Origin: a virus
UHGV virus genome: UHGV-0340572
Length of the DNA stretch: 16,100 bases
Strand: one strand, 5' to 3'
The translations under genes were made by a program, and so were the position numbers. The notes beneath the pieces were generated by a model. That model had not been told where the DNA came from. It did no database searches and saw only the letters and a program-made list of their open reading frames with translations. Each line of letters opens with the position of its first letter. Position 1 is the first letter of the stretch. Shown here piece by piece: positions 7,852 to 16,100 of the stretch.

Positions 7852-9269
7852 TGCCGATTCAGCAACTTCCGCTTATGAAAGGTGTCGGCAAAGACTTTCG
7901 AAACGCCGACTATATCGACTATCTGCCAGTGAATATGTTGGCTACACCAAAAGAAATCCTGAACAGCAGCGGATATCTTCGCTCATTCCCGGGCATTGCC
8001 AAACGTTCTGATGTAAACGGCGTATCGCGCGGAGTCGAGTACAACATGGCGCAGAATGCTGTTTATCGCGTGTGTGGTGGCAAGTTGTATAAGGGCGAAA
8101 GTGAAGTCGGCGATGTTGCCGGAAGTGGTCGTGTATCATTGGCTCATGGTCGGACATCACAGGCTGTAGGCGTTAATGGTCAACTGGTCGAGTATCGCTA
8201 TGATGGCACGGTTAAAACCGTCTCAAACTGGCCTACAGACAGCGGATTCACACAGTACGAGTTAGGCTCAGTCCGCGACATTACGCGCTTACGTGGCCGT
8301 TATGCGTGGTCAAAAGACGGCACTGATTCATGGTTTATCACTGACCTTGAAGACGAATCACATCCTGACCGATACAGCGCACAATATCGCGCAGAATCGC
8401 AGCCTGACGGCATCATCGGCATCGGAACATGGCGAGACTTCATCGTCTGTTTTGGTTCATCTACGATTGAGTATTTTTCCCTGACTGGTGCAACCACCGT
8501 TGGTGCCGCTTTGTATGTCGCCCAGCCATCGTTGATGGTGCAAAAAGGAATCGCCGGAACCTACTGCAAAACGCAGTTTTCTGATTCCTATGCGTTCATC
8601 AGCAATCCGGCAACAGGTGCTCCGTCTGTATACATCATCGGCTCCGGTCAGGTATCACCAATCGCCAGCGCGAGCATTGAGAAAATACTACGCTCCTACA
8701 CTGCTGATGAACTGGCTGATGGCGTGATGGAATCGTTGCGGTTTGATGCTCATGAGTTGCTGATTATTCACCTGCCGCGCCATGTTCTTGTTTACGACGC
8801 ATCTTCAAGCGCCAATGGTCCGCAATGGTGTGTGTTGAAAACAGGCCTGTATGACGATGTGTACCGCGCTATCGACTTCATTTACGAAGGCAATCAGATA
8901 ACGTGCGGCGATAAGCTGGAGTCCGTGACCGGGAAATTGCAATTCGACATCAGCAGCCAGTACGACAAGCAACAGGAACACCTGCTGTTTACTCCACTGT
9001 TCAAAGCGGATAACGCCAGAGTTTTCGACCTTGAGGTTGAATCGTCAACTGGCGTTGCGCAGTATGCTGACCGCCTTTTTCTCTCTGCAACCACTGACGG
9101 CATCAATTACGGGCGTGAGCAGATGATTGAGCAGAATGAACCGTTCGTTTACGACAAACGCGTTTTGTGGAAGCGAGTAGGGCGCATCAGGAAAAATGTC
9201 GGCTTCAAATTGCGCGTTATCACGAAGTCACCTGTCACTCTGTCTGGCTGCCAGATAAGGATTGAGTAA
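7851..9269 (+). CDS. 10: tail hub protein (P22 gp10-like), 472 aa
   Basis: 472 aa, the same as P22 gp10; start overlaps the gp4 stop (TAATG); conserved gene order 4-10-26. Confidence 0.9.
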
Positions 9270-10117
9270 TGGCGGATTCGAATCTCAATGTGCCGGTAAT
9301 CATCCAGGCTACGCGGCTCGACACATCAGTCCTTCCACGCAATATCTTCTCGCAGTCATATCTGCTGTACGTTATCGCACAGGGTACTGATGTTGGTAAC
9401 GTGGCGAACAAGGCCAACGAGGCCGGACAGGGCGCTTATGATGCACAGGTCAGAAACGATGAGCAGGATGTGATTCTCGCTGACCATGAGCAGCGAATTT
9501 CTGCTGCGGAAGCAACGCTTGTTAATCATGAGGAGCGAATCAGCCAGGCAGAATCAACTCTTCAGGAACATGAAACACGAATAGCTCAGAATGAAAGCGA
9601 TATTGCGTCGCTTGATACCAGAGTTCAGTCGCTGGAATCGCAGGTTTCAGACCATGAAACGCGCATCGATGCTCTGAAGTATGCCACTACTCGCAAGAAG
9701 TCAGAGGTTGTTTACTCTGGCGTATCTGTAACCATCCCGACAGCGCCGACCAACCTTGTTAGCCTACTGAAAACGCTCACGCCGTCATCCGGCACGTTGG
9801 CACCATTCTTCGACACCGTTAACAACAAGATGGTTGTGTTCAACGAGAACAAAACCTTGTTCTTCAAGCTGTCGATCGTCGGGACGTGGCCCAGCGGAAC
9901 CGCAAACAGGTCAATGCAGCTAACATTTTCCGGTTCTGTTCCTGACACACTGGTAAGCAGTCGCAACTCGGCGACAACAACCGACAACATCCTGTTAGCT
10001 ACGTTCTTCAGCGTGGATAAAGACGGCTTTCTTGCCACAAATGGCAGTACGTTAACCATTCAGTCAAATGGGGCGGCGTTTACTGCCACAACCATCAAAA
10101 TCATTGCGGAGCAGTGA
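9269..10117 (+). CDS. 26: tail needle protein (gp26-like) with C-terminal knob extension, 282 aa
   Basis: N-terminus [43 protein letters not shown] closely resembles the P22 gp26 N-terminus as I recall it, followed by a coiled-coil segment with repeated HExRI motifs. At 282 aa it is about 50 residues longer than P22 gp26 (233 aa), with a beta-rich C-terminal domain, as in Sf6-type needles. Confidence 0.85.
9482..9691 (+). repeat. 42-nt (14-codon) periodic repeat in the needle coiled-coil region
   Basis: Units beginning at 9482 (DHEQRIS), 9524 (NHEERIS), 9566 (EHETRIA) and 9650 (DHETRID) are spaced 42, 42 and 84 nt apart; imperfect at the nucleotide level. Confidence 0.55.
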
Positions 10118-11276: not shown

Positions 11277-12665
11277 ATGGCTACTTGGCAAGGAACAAAC
11301 GGCGGATTGTTGGCTGGTATCGGCGGCGTCAACTCAAACGCTCCGAGCGTAAATGACATCGGCAATACGCTTCAGCTTATCAGGCAGAACAATGATATTG
11401 AGCGTTCAGGCGCTAACAATGTTGGGCTGACTGCTTTGCAAGGCCTTTCAGGTATTGCGGGGGTGTTTCAGCAGGAAAAGCAGGCTCAGCGGCAGAAAGA
11501 ATTTCAGCAGGCATACGCTAATGCTTATGCGTCTGGTGATCGCGGTGCTTTGCGTCAGTTGGCTACTCAATATCCAGAACAGATTGAATCCGTTCGTAAA
11601 GGCATGGGATTCATTGATGAAGACCAGCGTAATTCTATCGGCACCTTAGCGGCTGGCGCACGCCTTGCGTCATCGTCTCCAGAAGCAATGCAATCATGGC
11701 TGCAAAACAACGCCAAGGAACTGACTCGCGTCGGTGTTGACCCTAACAGCGTTGCTCAGATGTATCAGCAGAACCCTTCAGGATTTGGTGAGTTTGTTGA
11801 TCACCTTGGAATGGCTGCTCTTGGTCCAATTGATTACTTCAATGTTCAGGACAAGATGGCTGGTCGTGAGATTGATCGCGGGAAACTTGCAGAGACAATC
11901 CGCAGCAATCAGGCTGGCGAGGCGCTAACAGCACGAGGCCAGAACATCACGATGCGCGGTCAGGACTTATCTGCTTCTACTGCGCGACGAGGTCAGGATT
12001 TGGCAATGCAGCGAGCGTCAACAAGAGGAATCGCTGGGAATGATGAGCGTACAGTTCAGTTATCAGATGGCAGAACTGTAACGGTAGGCGGGAAGCTTCA
12101 TGGCGCTGGGGCTAATGCGTTCTACGAAGGCATCGACAACGATGGGAATATGGTTCGCGTCCCTGCCAGTTCAATCGCTGCGCCTGCAACATCGTCTGCA
12201 TCAGCACAAAACTATGCCATGAAGAAGGATATCGACGCGATCGCAAATGCAGACGCTTCTGCTCTCGATTTCATGACAGGAATGACAGGTGGTGCAGGTA
12301 ATCCAGCAATTGGTGCTGATGTTCGCAGCCGATTAACGGGAAAAGAGCAGCGCCAGTTATATAACTCAGCACAACGTATTCAGGGCAGAATGCAGAATCA
12401 GGGTGTGGCGGCAGCAAGGGACATGGGTGCCAGTGGTATTAACACCGTTGCAGAAGCGAAGATGTATTTTCAGGGGATGCCGCAGGTTGACTATTCAAGC
12501 CCGGAGGCTATGCAGCAGTCGATTCGTGAGATTCAGGAATACACCAACAATTACAACCAACAATATAACGTTAATGTTGGTAAATCTCAGCGGCAGCAAT
12601 CTCAACCTGCACAGGTATCACAGCCAGCAGCCAGCAGTAACTTTTCTTCACTATGGGGTGATTAA
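11277..12665 (+). CDS. 20: ejection protein gp20-like, 462 aa
   Basis: Position after gene 7 and size near P22 gp20 (471 aa); RBS AAGGGG 5 nt upstream; stop overlaps the next start (TAATG). Confidence 0.82.
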
Positions 12666-14662
12666 TGGCTAAAGCATGGAAAGATGTTATCGCCTCTCCA
12701 CAGTATCAGGCGTTAGCACCAGAACAAAAAGCGCAGGCTCAGGAGCAATACTTCAATGAAGTCGTTGCCCCGCAAGCCGGAGAAAATGCAGAGCGGGCTA
12801 AGCAAGCTTTCTATGCTGCCTATCCATTGCCATCTGTGCAGCCAGTGGGGACACAGCAACCAGTAGCACAGCAACAACCACAGCAAAGTGGATTCATGTC
12901 TGATCTTGGCGAAGCAGTAAAAGAGACTGGTCGCGGAATGGTGCAGGCTGGCGTGAACGTGGCAAACATACCTGCATCAGTTGCCGATGCTGTAACAAGC
13001 GCGGCGGCTTGGGCTGGCGGTAAACTCGGCATTGGCGATGGTACATATCAACCAGCACCACGAGTAACAACGCAGGGATTAGAGCAGGACTTTGGCCTTC
13101 AGCAAGGTGCGCTGACTCCACAAACGACAGAGGGAAAGGTATTTGCTGAAGCATTGCCTTACCTCACTCCTGCTGGCGTTGAGAGAGCGGCGGTACAGGC
13201 ACCAACACTTGCTGGTCGAATTGCTCAGGGGGCAACTCGCCTTCTAGCAGAAAACGCAGTTGGATCACTTGCTGCAAACAGTGCGAAAGATGATGCGGAA
13301 GCACTCGCCACCGATTTAGGCGTTGGTGTGCTGGCTGGCGGTGCTATTAACGCTGCCGGACGTGGATTAGGTGCTGCTTATCGTGGTGTTCGTGGTTCGA
13401 TAGCACCAGAAGCTCAACAGGCTATCAGGTTTGCAGAGCGTGAAGGAGTTCCTCTGCACACCACAGACCTGTTACAGCCTACTTCCCGCGTCGGGAAAAT
13501 GGCGCAGACTACAGCAGAAAATATCCCCCTGGCTGGCACAAGCGGAATGAGAGCAACGCAACAGGAAGCGAGAAGCCAGTTGGTGCAGAGATTTGCCGAT
13601 AAATTCGGTGAGTATGATCCAGCGGTTGTTATTGACAGCCTTAAAGCGAAAACATCAGGAATTCGTCGTGCCGCCGGTAATCGACTGGAGCAGGTTCAGA
13701 ATGCTATGGCTGGAGTAAACATTCAGCCTGCGCGAGCAATTCAGCAGATTGATACAGAAATATCTAATCTGCAGAAGCTTGGTAAGGTTGCTGATAACGA
13801 GACTATTTCAAAACTTCAGTCATATCGTGATGAGCTTGTTCGCAATGCTGGTCCTGATGGTCCGGTAAATCTGGATTTGAAGCAATTAAGCGATCTGCGC
13901 AGCCAGTTCAGAATGGACGTGAAGGGTGAACGACCAGTGTTACCAAACCGTTCCGATGCTGCCATTCAGCGCGTTTACAAGGCGATGACAGACGATATCA
14001 ATGGTGCCATTGGTCAGAATCTTGGCAACGATACTCTCCGTAAATATCAGCAGGCCAATGCCGTATACGCTGACGAAGCGGCGAAACTAAAGAATACCAG
14101 GCTGAAGAATGTTCTCATGAAAGGCGACCTGACGCCGGAAGTTGTCAACAACATGCTATTCAGCAAGAACAAATCGGAAATTAAGACGCTGTATAACTCA
14201 GTTGGTCGCGTTGGAAGAGCGCAAATGCGCAATGGCATCATTGGAAAGGCGATAGAGAAATCAGGTGGTTCACCTGACCAGTTCCTTCGACAGCTTAACA
14301 TCCTGCAAAACCAGACTGGCATCACATTTAAAGGTCAGGAAGCCGCTTATCTGAAAGGATTGAAAAACTACCTTCAGTCCACTCAGCAGGCAGCAAAAGC
14401 GGCAGTAACAACACCAACAGGGCAGCAAACCATCCCGTTCATTATCGGATATGGGACGGCAATGAACCCGGCGACAACTGGCGCAGCAGTAAGCTACGGA
14501 CTTCTTACTCGCGCCTATGAGAGCGAGCCATTCAGAAATGCAATGCTCCGAATGGCAAACACACCACGCGGATCAACAGCGTTTGAGAAAGTCATGCAGC
14601 AGGCGCAAAAGGCCATTAACGCCCTGACTCAGGGTGCCAAGTCTGATGCGTTGTCAGAATAG
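12665..14662 (+). CDS. 16: ejection protein gp16-like, 665 aa
   Basis: Last gene of the ejection-protein trio by synteny; Ala/Gly/Gln-rich; longer than the 609 aa I recall for P22 gp16. Confidence 0.82.
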   Translation: MAKAWKDVIASPQYQALAPEQKAQAQEQYFNEVVAPQAGENAERAKQAFYAAYPLPSVQPVGTQQPVAQQQPQQSGFMSDLGEAVKETGRGMVQAGVNVANIPASVADAVTSAAAWAGGKLGIGDGTYQPAPRVTTQGLEQDFGLQQGALTPQTTEGKVFAEALPYLTPAGVERAAVQAPTLAGRIAQGATRLLAENAVGSLAANSAKDDAEALATDLGVGVLAGGAINAAGRGLGAAYRGVRGSIAPEAQQAIRFAEREGVPLHTTDLLQPTSRVGKMAQTTAENIPLAGTSGMRATQQEARSQLVQRFADKFGEYDPAVVIDSLKAKTSGIRRAAGNRLEQVQNAMAGVNIQPARAIQQIDTEISNLQKLGKVADNETISKLQSYRDELVRNAGPDGPVNLDLKQLSDLRSQFRMDVKGERPVLPNRSDAAIQRVYKAMTDDINGAIGQNLGNDTLRKYQQANAVYADEAAKLKNTRLKNVLMKGDLTPEVVNNMLFSKNKSEIKTLYNSVGRVGRAQMRNGIIGKAIEKSGGSPDQFLRQLNILQNQTGITFKGQEAAYLKGLKNYLQSTQQAAKAAVTTPTGQQTIPFIIGYGTAMNPATTGAAVSYGLLTRAYESEPFRNAMLRMANTPRGSTAFEKVMQQAQKAINALTQGAKSDALSE

Positions 14663-14731
14663 CTTCGCAAACACCAGAAACGTGCAAAAACCAAATATGT
14701 AGAACGCAATATTCATCATATCTCTTTGCAT
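14654..14731 (-). CDS. candidate small hydrophobic peptide, 25 aa (MQRDMMNIAFYIFGFCTFLVFAKLF)
   Basis: On the - strand, 20 nt after the mnt stop: GGAGG, 4-nt spacer, ATG, then 25 codons forming one hydrophobic, transmembrane-like segment; the TGA stop overlaps the last codons of gene 16 antisense. Too short to be in the ORF track. Could equally be a deletion remnant. Confidence 0.3.
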   Translation of the reverse strand: MQRDMMNIAFYIFGFCTFLVFAKLF

Positions 14732-14751
14732 AAATCCTCCGTAATGGATGG

Positions 14752-15012
14752 TTAGTTGCTGTCTTTTTTATATAGCTCCTTGAGCGTATCAAAGACAATT
14801 TTCTTAACCATATCAGATTGTTGTTCTGCCATACGCTCTGCATCGTCAATGTAAACTGATGCAGAGCTTTGTTTATCCAATGATTCCTCAATCGCTGCAA
14901 TTATCTCTGAGTTCAGCGACCTGTTATTCATCTTCGCACGCTGCTTAATTTTCGCGTGAAGTTCATGCGGAAGTCTCAAGTGAAACTGCGCCTCGTCGTA
15001 TTTGCTGTACAT
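14752..15012 (-). CDS. mnt: Mnt-like ribbon-helix-helix repressor, 86 aa
   Basis: The track ORF (14752-15510, -) is over-extended across the tailspike start. From the internal ATG at 15012 the protein MYSKYDEAQFHLRLPHELHAKIKQRAKMNNRSLNSEIIAAIEESL...DDAERMAEQQSDMVKKIVFDTLKELYKK matches P22 Mnt as I recall it (HFNFRMPMEVREKLKFRAEANGRSMNSELLQIVQDAL...NDAERLADEQSELVKKMVFDTLKDLYKK). GAGG lies 8 nt upstream on the - strand. Confidence 0.8.
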   Translation of the reverse strand: MYSKYDEAQFHLRLPHELHAKIKQRAKMNNRSLNSEIIAAIEESLDKQSSASVYIDDAERMAEQQSDMVKKIVFDTLKELYKKDSN

Positions 15013-15147
15013 CCTTGATGCCTCACCAGTTGGGTGGAATGGCATCGTAAAACCTACTGTACAAATCAACAATCGTACCGTTTCGGTATGCAACAAACAC
15101 CAACCGTAGCCACGCTGCGGCGATTCCTTGTATCTGGAGCAAATTAA
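15013..15147. promoter_or_regulatory. divergent intergenic region between mnt and tailspike; probable promoter/operator region
   Basis: 135-bp non-coding gap between divergently oriented genes. Contains the inverted repeat TACCG-TTT-CGGTA (15076-15088), the palindromic hexamer TGTACA (15058-15063) and the imperfect 17-bp palindrome CCGTAGCCACGCTGCGG (15103-15119). I could not pick out convincing -35/-10 hexamers by eye. Confidence 0.4.
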
Positions 15148-16100
15148 ATGACAGACATTACAGCCAATGTGATTGTATCGATGCCTTCGCAACTCTTCAC
15201 TATGGCGCGTTCTTTTAAAGCTGTAGCCAATGGCAAAATTTATATCGGTAAAATTGACACTGACCCTGTAAATCCAGAAAACCAGATTCAGGTTTATGTG
15301 GAGAACGAAGACGGCTCTCACGTTCCTGTTTCGCAACCAATCATCATTAATGCTGCTGGATATCCGGTATATAACGGACAGATTGCCAAATTCGTAACTG
15401 AGCAAGGCCATTCTATGGCTGTATATGATGCGTATGGCACGCAGCAGTTCTATTTCCCTAATGTGCTGAAGTACGACCCTGATCAATTTGAGATTAGGCT
15501 TTCTAATCAAGACGGCGCTGGTCTTGTTGGGATTATGCCATATGGCACGGTACAGGATGCCATCAAATGGGTTGTCCCCGAGGTATTCCCCGGAAGTAAT
15601 GCGTCAGAAAAATTACAGGCAGCTGTAAATTATGCGGTTGCAAACAAAACGAGAGTTGTAGCATCAGGTGTGTACGATGTAACGGCCCCCGTCACCATCC
15701 CAGGAGACATCATTATCGATGCTTCTACTGGAGAATTTACCTTCAATGGCATTGATTATATTTTCCATCCGCTTGGCGCAAAATCAGTAGAGATTATCGG
15801 TGGTAAGTTCACCGCAAATGCATACCACACCCAGCGTCCTCAGGTAATTTTCAATGATTACCCTGATGGGCTGGCGAATTTGCCAACGCGAGTGGTGATA
15901 AAAGATATGCAATGCTTTAACTGCGGTGTTGGCTACATCATGGTTAACTGTCAGGACCCAACCAGCGTACATGTCTCAGTTGATAATAACTACTGCAAGA
16001 CTGATGACAACACAGATCAGTATATCTCTGATGCAGGAATGTCAGGTGAACAGGGTGAGGTATATCCATATCTGATGATTCTTGGCAACACGACTGCATC
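15148..16100 (+). CDS. 9: tailspike protein, 5' portion (truncated at window end); P22-type N-terminal head-binding domain with a different receptor-binding domain
   Basis: ATG at 15148 with GGAG 9 nt upstream. Translation MTDITANVIVSMPSQLFTMARSFKAVANGKIYIGKIDTDPVNPENQIQVY...NVLKYDPDQF matches the conserved P22-family tailspike head-binding domain. After about residue 113 the sequence (IRLSNQDGAGLVGIMPYGTVQDAIKWV...) no longer resembles P22 gp9 as I recall it. Open to the window end, so absent from the ORF track. Confidence 0.85.
   Translation, partial: MTDITANVIVSMPSQLFTMARSFKAVANGKIYIGKIDTDPVNPENQIQVYVENEDGSHVPVSQPIIINAAGYPVYNGQIAKFVTEQGHSMAVYDAYGTQQFYFPNVLKYDPDQFEIRLSNQDGAGLVGIMPYGTVQDAIKWVVPEVFPGSNASEKLQAAVNYAVANKTRVVASGVYDVTAPVTIPGDIIIDASTGEFTFNGIDYIFHPLGAKSVEIIGGKFTANAYHTQRPQVIFNDYPDGLANLPTRVVIKDMQCFNCGVGYIMVNCQDPTSVHVSVDNNYCKTDDNTDQYISDAGMSGEQGEVYPYLMILGNTTA

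What the first reader, a model, noticed from the sequence alone, without database searches (positions are those of the whole stretch)
15148..16100. Tailspike recombination junction: conserved head-binding domain fused to a non-P22 receptor-binding domain
Residues 1 to about 113 (through NVLKYDPDQF) match the P22-family tailspike head-binding domain. From about nt 15487 onward (EIRLSNQDGAGLVGIMPYGTVQDAIKWV...) the sequence diverges from P22 gp9 as I recall it. This is the classic host-range module exchange, and the junction sits in the linker after the head-binding domain. The receptor specificity (O-antigen type) of this element is therefore likely different from P22.
Basis: partly seen in the sequence, partly recalled or inferred. 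Interest (0 to 1): 0.5.

Follow-up and report, generated by a model that had tools for sequence, protein, structure and literature searches.

The report
Mosaic P22-like prophage tailspike gene
This is the start of a prophage tailspike gene in which the standard P22-family tail-attachment domain is joined to a rare, uncharacterised sugar-recognising body that relatives suggest targets the E. coli O153/O178 surface antigen; it is a clean example of a well-known host-range swap, not a new kind of system.

Summary
The ORF from 15148 runs off the window end (317 codons). Residues 1-113 are a complete Pfam Head_binding domain. DNA identity to P22-family tailspike genes (about 90% to CUS-3, Sf6, HK620; unbroken in phage IME10 and many E. 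coli prophages) stops at nt 15485-15492. From about nt 15505-15514 the gene is about 95% identical to the tailspike body of an unrelated siphovirus, vB_EcoS_swi2, which has a different N-terminal adaptor.

The same body is fused to at least five adaptor types. In P22-like and epsilon15-like prophages it travels with a convergent O-antigen acyltransferase as one 3.8-kb block. All six carrier genomes are among the 16 with O153/O178-family wzx/wzy (P about 1e-13), so that O-antigen is the predicted receptor.

The window ends 40-80 nt before the body's variable region, so its exact variant is unknown. Verdict: a new member of a known kind, of modest interest.

The parts
15136..15139 (+). Shine-Dalgarno-like GGAG, 8 nt upstream of the tailspike ATG
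   Evidence: Read directly from the sequence.
15148..16100 (+). Tailspike gene, 5' part only (317 codons; the 3' end lies beyond the window). The closest full-length homologues are 718, 713 or 946 aa.
   Evidence: Open frame to the window end. 99% aa identity over all 317 residues to P0021 (718 aa) and P0033 (946 aa), and 98% to P0030 (713 aa).
15148..15486 (+). Head-binding (tail-hub adaptor) domain, residues 1-113, P22/Sf6 family
   Evidence: Pfam PF09008 1-113/113, E 5.7e-66. Sf6 gp14 N-terminus in PDB 7sg7, E 1.7e-67. About 90% nt identity to CUS-3, Sf6 and HK620.
15487..15510 (+). Junction linker, residues 114-121 (EIRLSNQD). P22-family homology ends at its 5' edge and cross-family body homology begins at its 3' edge. 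It resembles the LRxxLxxxxGA linker of other tailspikes only loosely.
   Evidence: Base-level alignment. Matches of IME10 and E. coli prophages end at 15488-15492. The swi2 block starts at L002 6906, which is window 15505, and the epsilon15-like prophage block starts at L002 6915, which is window 15514.
15511..16100 (+). Conserved N-terminal part of the receptor-binding body (residues 122-317): GAGLVG motif, capping helix and first rungs of a right-handed beta-helix. Family phrog_29018.
   Evidence: 95% nt identity to swi2 gp01. phrog_29018 E 2.6e-126. 96-100% nt identity among all E. coli variants up to gene nt about 990. AlphaFold2 model of the 99%-identical P0021 has pLDDT mostly above 85 from residue 150. 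Beta-helix fold matches.
14752..15012 (-). Mnt/Arc-family repressor gene (86 aa) of the immI region, divergent from the tailspike gene. Context that marks the P22-like gene order; not part of the junction.
   Evidence: Pfam Arc E 8e-15 and Repressor_Mnt E 3e-14. The same gene is annotated in E. coli M9, E62 and BKQWHE.

Best explanation
The gene encodes the tailspike of a P22-like (Lederbergvirus-type) prophage, built from two modules with separate histories.

Module 1, residues 1-113, is the standard head-binding domain that docks the trimeric spike onto the tail hub. It is co-linear with, and as conserved as, the rest of the P22-like late operon in the window.

Module 2, from about residue 122, is a receptor-binding body brought in by recombination at the short linker after the head-binding domain. 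Its partners are phages of other types that carry the same body on other adaptors.

The body most likely folds as a trimeric right-handed beta-helix that binds, and probably cleaves, the O-antigen of E. coli with the O153/O178-family gene cluster, setting host range. In related prophages the body travels together with a convergent O-antigen acyltransferase. After lysogeny that enzyme probably modifies the same receptor, giving serotype conversion and superinfection exclusion.

Shown: the domain identity, the breakpoint, the sharing of the body across adaptors, the fold class (on a 99%-identical homologue), and the host-serogroup association of relatives.

Inferred: trimer formation, enzymatic cleavage, the O153/O178 receptor for this particular copy, and the role of the acyltransferase. 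The acyltransferase gene lies outside the window.
For: Domain and breakpoint.

Body shared at 95% nt identity with siphovirus swi2, whose N-terminus is Pfam Tail_spike_N and not Head_binding.

Same body on Head_binding, on Tail_spike_N, on an SPN1S/TL-2011b-like (epsilon15-type) adaptor, and on two further adaptor types matching PHROG tail-fibre families.

Conserved acidic residues in the family alignment, in P0021 numbering: D253, D347, E375 and D377 invariant; D286, D287, D290, D337 and E384 nearly invariant.

Receptor: the body occurs in 6 of 5426 complete E. coli genomes, and all 6 are among the 16 genomes with O153/O178-family wzx/wzy. Hypergeometric P = 2e-16, or 1e-13 if the clonal pair M6/M9 is counted once.

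The link between a prophage tailspike and the host's serogroup is an established principle for Lederberg- and Uetakeviruses (PMC10408124).

Cassette: one unbroken 3797-bp block at 93% identity, running from tailspike codon about 123 through the whole acyltransferase gene, is shared between a P22-like and an epsilon15-like prophage.
Against: The window holds only 317 codons. The variable part of the body, all but one of the invariant acidic residues (only D253 lies inside), and the acyltransferase are all outside it.

The window's own host and serogroup are unknown. No fetched locus is identical to it; the best is 98.4%.

The host association rests on five independent genomes. It shows which hosts carry the prophage, not what the spike binds.

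Relatives occur in Citrobacter and Hafnia, whose O-antigens were not examined.
Confidence: 0.8

Rival explanations
1. The body binds a surface polysaccharide other than the O-antigen, such as colanic acid or a capsule. The O153/O178 association would then be a by-product of prophage spread within a few related lineages.
For: There is a weak PHROG match of the first 81 body residues to phrog_6117, 'colanic acid degradation' (E 1.2e-5), and weak matches of the same stretch to Klebsiella phage tail fibres. Only five independent carrier genomes support the O-antigen link.
Against: The weak matches cover only the generic N-terminal cap of beta-helix depolymerases. The carriers come from mouse, rat and three human sources in different countries, with prophages at different integration sites (torT region; argW/yfdC), so they are not one clone. 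The body is tightly linked to an Acyl_transf_3+SGNH acyltransferase of the type that P22-like and epsilon15-like prophages use for O-antigen modification.
Confidence: 0.1
2. The body is a non-catalytic adhesin, or it is a lyase or deacetylase and not an endoglycosidase. It would still set host range, but by binding only or by a different chemistry.
Against: Invariant carboxylates are clustered within about 30 residues on successive beta-helix rungs (D347, E375, D377). This resembles the pattern in hydrolytic tailspikes; the comparison with P22, Sf6 and HK620 is from memory and was not tested here. According to the review PMC7685785, the O153 and O178 O-units are notable for D-ribofuranose. No uronic acid, which a lyase would need, appeared in the passages read, but the full structures were not read.
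Confidence: 0.2
3. There was no recombination. The region after residue 113 is simply a fast-diverging part of an orthologous P22 gp9-type gene.
For: The body has the same fold class as the P22, Sf6 and HK620 bodies.
Against: Identity falls from about 90% to background within less than 30 nt. The downstream DNA is 93-95% identical to genes of phages whose upstream parts and genomes are unrelated. Hundreds of prophages share the upstream 15.5 kb and stop matching at the same base.
Confidence: 0.01

Closest known systems
Tailspikes of P22-like phages with swapped bodies (P22 gp9, Sf6 gp14, HK620 gp9, CUS-3 endosialidase tailspike, epsilon34 gp19)
   Same: The N-terminal head-binding domain is the same (Pfam PF09008; 89% aa identity to Sf6 and 70% to P22 over the domain). 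The gene sits in the same position, after gp16 and the immI/mnt region. The exchange point, just after ...YDPDQ(F/Y/L), is the same. The body has the same beta-helix fold class.
   Different: The body has no detectable sequence similarity to any of those bodies; identity in structural alignments is about 10-12%. The predicted receptor is the E. coli O153/O178 O-antigen, not Salmonella O:4/O:9, Shigella flexneri Y, E. coli O18A1 or K1 polysialic acid (those specificities are quoted from memory and from record annotations).
Escherichia phage vB_EcoS_swi2 gp01 (YP_010054109.1; Swiduovirus, a siphovirus)
   Same: The receptor-binding body is the same: 95% nt identity over window 15511-16100 and about 90% aa identity over the whole body of the 718-aa homologue.
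   Different: Its N-terminal adaptor is Pfam Tail_spike_N (PF18668), not Head_binding. It comes from a virulent-type siphovirus genome and has no acyltransferase next to it. Its RefSeq name, 'head-binding domain-containing protein', does not fit its N-terminus.
The P22 / 9NA / Det7 case: one tailspike body shared by a podovirus, a siphovirus and a myovirus
   Different: The body family and the host are different. Here the sharing also extends to a linked acyltransferase gene between two temperate phage types. That P22, 9NA and Det7 share a body is recalled from the literature and was not tested here.
Serogroup-specific RBP subtypes of Lederberg- and Uetakevirus prophages (Pas et al. 2023, PMC10408124)
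   Same: The framework is the same: an anchor of about 124 aa (Lederbergvirus) or about 205 aa (Uetakevirus) followed by a horizontally transferred receptor-binding domain whose subtype tracks the host O-serogroup. An O-antigen modification gene often sits behind the RBP gene.
   Different: No subtype was assigned to O153 or O178 in that study, and swi2 is not mentioned. No paper in the held library combines 'tailspike' and 'O178' apart from a general O-antigen review.

Membership tests
P22-family tailspike (defined by the N-terminal head-binding adaptor) | Complete Pfam Head_binding (PF09008) domain at the N-terminus | tested here: met
   Residues 1-113 match profile positions 1-113 of 113, E 5.7e-66, 220 bits against a cut-off of 24.
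P22-family tailspike (defined by the N-terminal head-binding adaptor) | Position at the end of a P22-like late operon, after the ejection proteins and the immI (mnt/arc) region | tested here: met
   The window is co-linear with IME10 and with E. coli P22-like prophages from nt 1 to 15488-15492. An Mnt/Arc gene lies at 14752-15012 on the minus strand. An Sf6-type needle knob gene lies at 9269-10117.
P22-family tailspike (defined by the N-terminal head-binding adaptor) | Homotrimer that docks on the gp4/gp10 tail hub | not testable with these tools
   Inferred only from 89% identity to the Sf6 gp14 N-terminal domain, which was solved in situ (7sg7).
P22 gp9 endorhamnosidase body (orthologue of the P22 receptor-binding domain) | Sequence similarity to P22 gp9 beyond the head-binding domain | tested here: not met
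   phmmer against full-length P22 tailspike chains (2xc1, 8tvr, 5gai) aligns residues 1-142 only; a second stretch scores -0.2 bits. Profile searches with the body find no PDB sequence at all.
swi2-type tailspike body (phrog_29018) | Full-length match of the region after the linker to the family profile or its members | tested here: met
   The window fragment matches phrog_29018 at E 2.6e-126 (profile positions 100-296 of 694). The 718-aa homologue's body matches at E 2e-289 (positions 100-691). 95% nt identity to swi2.
Right-handed parallel beta-helix polysaccharide-active proteins (pectin-lyase-like fold) | Beta-helix fold of the body | tested here: met
Enzymatic (depolymerising) tailspikes | Catalytic carboxylates in the groove, and cleavage of the receptor polysaccharide | tested here: inconclusive
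   D253, D347, E375 and D377 are invariant across 35 family members. Their position in the groove was not examined, and activity cannot be tested here. Only D253 lies inside the window.
O153/O178-specific receptor-binding proteins (predicted class) | Carriage restricted to hosts with the O153/O178 O-antigen gene cluster | tested here: met
   6 of 6 carrier genomes are among the 16 of 5426 with O153/O178-family wzx/wzy, P = 2e-16. This was tested on relatives; the window's own host is unknown.
O153/O178-specific receptor-binding proteins (predicted class) | Direct binding or cleavage of the O153/O178 polysaccharide | not testable with these tools
   This needs purified protein and LPS.
TSP1/Gp66-type tailspikes (Pfam Tail_spike_N adaptor) | PF18668 N-terminal domain | tested here: not met
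   There is no PF18668 hit in the window protein. The domain is present in swi2 gp01, P0005 and P0007, which share the body.

The most novel reading that the evidence does not exclude
The body's variable C-terminal two-thirds and the adjacent acyltransferase form a co-inherited pair that exists in at least three alternative versions, all on one O153/O178 backbone:
- 718/817-aa body with a 651-aa Acyl_transf_3+SGNH enzyme;
- 712/713-aa body with an unrelated 335-aa acyltransferase;
- 946-aa body with an added SGNH esterase and a 650-aa acyltransferase that is 65% identical to the first.

This would be a phage arms-race cassette in which each tailspike version is matched to a different O-acetylation state of the same O-antigen. 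It might also underlie the disputed serological split between O153 and O178, two serogroups reported by one group to have 99.9% identical gene clusters, a grouping another group disputes (PMC4732683).
Probability: 0.2. Interest if true: 0.55.

Novelty: new member of a known kind. Interest (0 to 1): 0.33.

Why it matters
Exchange of tailspike bodies behind a conserved adaptor is the textbook route by which P22-like phages change host range, so the mechanism is not new.

What this case adds is a specific, previously uncharacterised body family with a testable receptor prediction: the O153/O178 O-antigen. O178 strains include Shiga-toxin-producing E. coli; one carrier here is an O178:H19 clinical isolate. 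If the prediction is confirmed, the body could serve as a serogroup-specific detection or decolonisation reagent and as a ready-made module for retargeting phages, because nature has already placed it on at least five adaptor types.

The linked acyltransferase and the three co-varying versions also give a compact natural system for studying how receptor modification and receptor recognition co-evolve.

Tried and rejected
- A word-indexed protein search with the 200-aa body fragment alone returned only two partial Citrobacter fragments. The exhaustive HMMER search and a profile query were needed to find the family.
- Pfam, NCBIfam and PDB sequence or profile searches of the body found nothing meaningful. 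The PDB 'hits' (dehydrogenase, factor IX, E 0.14-2.2) are chance.
- I tried to find the window's own source so as to read the rest of the gene. None of the fetched loci is identical: 98.4% to the 946-aa type, 98.1% to the 718-aa type and 96.4% to the 713-aa type over the 953 nt. The continuation stays open.
- The N-terminal 150 residues of the AlphaFold2 model have low confidence, probably because the alignment mixes unrelated adaptors there. I did not use that part; the head-binding assignment rests on sequence.
- The promoter and terminator scan of 14600-15250 gave nothing above shuffled expectation.
- I considered whether the experimentally characterised O153-specific TSP3 of Agtrevirus AV101 (PMC10791037) is the same body. 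It was not among the tblastn hits in the phage collection, but I could not confirm that AV101 is in that collection, so the relation is unresolved.
- Gradual divergence without recombination was rejected on the sharpness of the breakpoint.

Full report
**1. What is in the window**

The window is the late (virion) operon of a P22-like prophage. It is co-linear at 96-98% identity with E. coli prophages and with phage IME10 from nt 1 to nt 15488-15492. The operon includes the terminase, portal, scaffold and coat genes, a tail needle with an Sf6-type knob (9269-10117), the ejection proteins, and an Mnt/Arc repressor gene on the minus strand (14752-15012).

The finding concerns the last gene. An ATG at 15148, preceded by GGAG at 15136-15139, opens a frame that is still open at the window end, giving 317 codons.

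**2.

- Pfam Head_binding (PF09008) covers residues 1-113 and the whole 113-position profile (E 5.7e-66).
- A search against solved structures aligns only this N-terminus. Sf6 gp14 matches residues 1-119 (E 1.7e-67), and full-length P22 tailspike chains match residues 1-142, with no significant second stretch.
- At the DNA level, identity to CUS-3, Sf6 and HK620 is about 90% up to the 30-nt bin that starts at 15448. It drops to 40-47%, which is background, from the bin that starts at 15478.
- The base-level alignment places the end of P22-family homology at ...CCTGATCA(A/G)TT. This is nt 15487-15488, the boundary of codons 113 and 114 (DQF|E).
- About 1170 of 5426 complete E. coli genomes match the 5' part, and their matches end at window 15485-15493. 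Only four genomes match across the junction.

The pattern cannot be chance or gradual divergence.

**3. What lies after the junction**

From about nt 15505-15514 the gene is 95% identical to gp01 of Escherichia phage vB_EcoS_swi2, a 47.6-kb siphovirus of the genus Swiduovirus. The swi2 N-terminus is Pfam Tail_spike_N (PF18668), not Head_binding.

Between the two homology blocks lie eight codons, EIRLSNQD (15487-15510). They resemble the swi2 linker (LRTQLANTT) only loosely. They lead into the shared motif GAGLVGIMPYGTVQDAIKWVVPE.

**4. The body family is rare**

- An exhaustive HMMER scan of 1.84 billion cluster representatives found 14 matches.
- A profile search of 5.8 billion proteins found 35.
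- Only 6 of 5426 complete E. coli genomes carry the body.
- It has no Pfam, NCBIfam or PDB sequence relative. It belongs to phrog_29018, 'unknown function'.

**5. A mobile module on many adaptors**

The same body, at 40-99% identity, is found behind at least five adaptor types:

- P22 Head_binding, in E. coli, Citrobacter freundii and Hafnia paralvei;
- Tail_spike_N, in swi2 and several metagenomic phages;
- an adaptor 82% identical to the N-terminus of the tailspikes of Salmonella phage SPN1S and Escherichia phage TL-2011b, which are epsilon15-like (P0004);
- two further adaptors that match other PHROG tail-fibre families (P0006/P0031 and P0008).

Two members, P0033 and P0029, add a C-terminal GDSL/SGNH esterase domain.

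**6. Fold**

The window holds only part of the gene, so I modelled P0021. It is 718 aa long and 99% identical to the window over all 317 residues. I used the 35-sequence family alignment for the prediction.

The body, residues about 150-718, is predicted with pLDDT mostly above 85 as a long stack of short beta-strands. The N-terminal 150 residues are poorly modelled, and I did not use them.

The fold class is settled, but the chemistry is not. D253, D347, E375 and D377 are invariant across the family and are candidate catalytic residues. Only D253 lies inside the window.

**7. Predicted receptor**

RefSeq annotates wzy and wzx of strain E62, one of the carriers, as 'O153/O178 family'. A search with those two genes finds them in only 16 of 5426 complete genomes.

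All six carriers of the tailspike body are among those 16: M9, M6, E62, BKQWHE, O178:H19 strain 2012C-4431 and CM185151. The hypergeometric probability is 2e-16, or 1e-13 if the clonal pair M6/M9 is counted once.

The carriers come from mouse, rat and human sources, and their prophages sit at different chromosomal sites. That a Lederbergvirus or Uetakevirus prophage tailspike tracks its host's O-serogroup is an established principle (PMC10408124). I therefore predict the O153/O178 O-antigen as the receptor. This is an inference from relatives, because the window's own host is unknown.

**8. The body travels with an acyltransferase**

In every P22-like relative, the tailspike gene is followed by a convergent acyltransferase gene and then the integrase. 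The epsilon15-like prophage also has the acyltransferase directly after the tailspike gene.

Between the P22-like prophage of strain M9 and the epsilon15-like prophage there is a single unbroken 3797-bp alignment at 93% identity. It runs from tailspike codon about 123 to the start codon of the 651-aa Acyl_transf_3+SGNH acyltransferase. The receptor-binding body and the probable receptor-modifying enzyme therefore move as one cassette between two temperate phage types. The virulent-type swi2 shares only the body.

**9. A second layer of mosaicism, and what the window cannot show**

All E. coli versions are 96-100% identical in DNA from gene nt about 361 to about 990. BKQWHE is the exception and diverges from about nt 856. 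After that point they split into three versions whose C-terminal two-thirds are only about 60-76% identical.

The version of the body co-varies with the acyltransferase in all seven loci examined:

- 718/817-aa bodies go with the 651-aa enzyme;
- 712/713-aa bodies go with an unrelated 335-aa acyltransferase;
- the 946-aa body, which has the esterase domain, goes with a 650-aa enzyme 65% identical to the first.

The window ends at gene nt 953, which is 40-80 nt before this internal boundary. It is 99-100% identical in the body part to members of all three versions. Which version the window's gene belongs to cannot be decided from the window or from any fetched locus.

**10. Comparison with what is known**

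Exchange of the receptor-binding body behind the conserved head-binding domain is the classic feature of P22-like tailspikes (P22, Sf6, HK620, CUS-3, epsilon34). The sharing of one body among podo-, sipho- and myoviruses is also known from P22/9NA/Det7; I recall this from the literature and did not test it here. Pas et al. 2023 describe the same architecture and the same logic for E. coli serogroups, but they list no O153 or O178 subtype and do not mention swi2. No paper in the held library links a tailspike to O178.

An O153-specific TSP3 of Agtrevirus AV101 has been characterised (PMC10791037). It was not among the tblastn hits for this body, but I could not confirm that it is in the collection searched.

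The finding is therefore a new member of a well-known kind. The mechanism is ordinary, the particular body is undescribed, and its receptor is now a testable prediction.

**11. Verdict**

Interest is modest (0.33). A specialist would not be surprised by the junction itself. The rarity of the body, its spread over at least five adaptors, its linkage to an acyltransferase, and the clean serogroup association make it a useful lead, not a discovery.

The most novel reading not excluded is that the three body/acyltransferase versions are matched recognition and modification pairs acting on one O-antigen backbone, possibly related to the disputed O153/O178 serological split. I give this a probability of about 0.2.

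Noticed in passing
L002 6915-10710 and L012 8664-12459 (related loci; the left edge corresponds to window about 15514): One unbroken 3797-bp block at 93% identity is shared by a P22-like prophage (E. coli M9) and an epsilon15/SPN1S-like prophage. It covers the tailspike body from codon about 123 and the whole convergent 651-aa Acyl_transf_3+SGNH acyltransferase. Receptor recognition and probable receptor modification are therefore transferred together.
   Followed up: partly
L002, L003, L004, L008, L010, L011, L012 (tailspike 3' parts and the downstream genes): The C-terminal two-thirds of the body come in three versions that co-vary with three different acyltransferases in 7 of 7 loci. The internal boundary lies at gene nt about 990-1036, just beyond the window end. 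Within the 718-aa type there is a further variable patch at gene nt about 1036-1350.
   Followed up: partly
P0033 (946 aa; L008 2625-5465) and P0029 (959 aa): Two family members, one with a Head_binding adaptor and one with a Tail_spike_N adaptor, carry an additional C-terminal GDSL/SGNH esterase domain after the beta-helix body. This suggests a combined depolymerase and deacetylase spike.
   Followed up: no
L001 4603-6795 (swi2 gp01, YP_010054109.1); also P0004 and P0007: RefSeq/NCBI name these proteins 'phage head-binding domain-containing protein', although they have no Head_binding domain. swi2 gp01 and P0007 have Tail_spike_N, and P0004 has an epsilon15-like adaptor. The name seems to have spread through similarity of the body.
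   Followed up: yes
window 14752-15510, minus strand: The mechanical ORF list shows a 252-aa TTG-started ORF that overlaps the start of the tailspike gene. Only its 3' 86 codons (14752-15012) are a real gene, the Mnt/Arc repressor. No ant (antirepressor) gene lies between mnt and the tailspike gene here, unlike in CUS-3 and in the L010 locus.
   Followed up: partly
window 9269-10117, plus strand: The tail needle gene carries the Sf6-type C-terminal knob (Pfam Phage_tail_NK, E 6e-117). In this respect the virion is Sf6-like and not P22-like.
   Followed up: no
L002, L003/L004/L008, L011 (prophage right ends): Near-identical tailspike and acyltransferase modules sit in prophages at different chromosomal sites: next to torT in M9 (with a truncated gene remnant where other loci have the integrase), at tRNA-Arg/yfdC with intS in E62, BKQWHE and L008, and near the bio/uvrB region in L011. 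In BKQWHE most of the prophage is deleted, leaving only a gp16 fragment, mnt, the tailspike gene, the acyltransferase and int.
   Followed up: no
window 12665-14662, plus strand: The gp16-type ejection protein (665 aa) gave no hit in the Pfam copy used for scanning, although its homologues carry a precomputed PF26808 (Phage_P22_gp16) label. This looks like a library-version difference and not a biological one.
   Followed up: no
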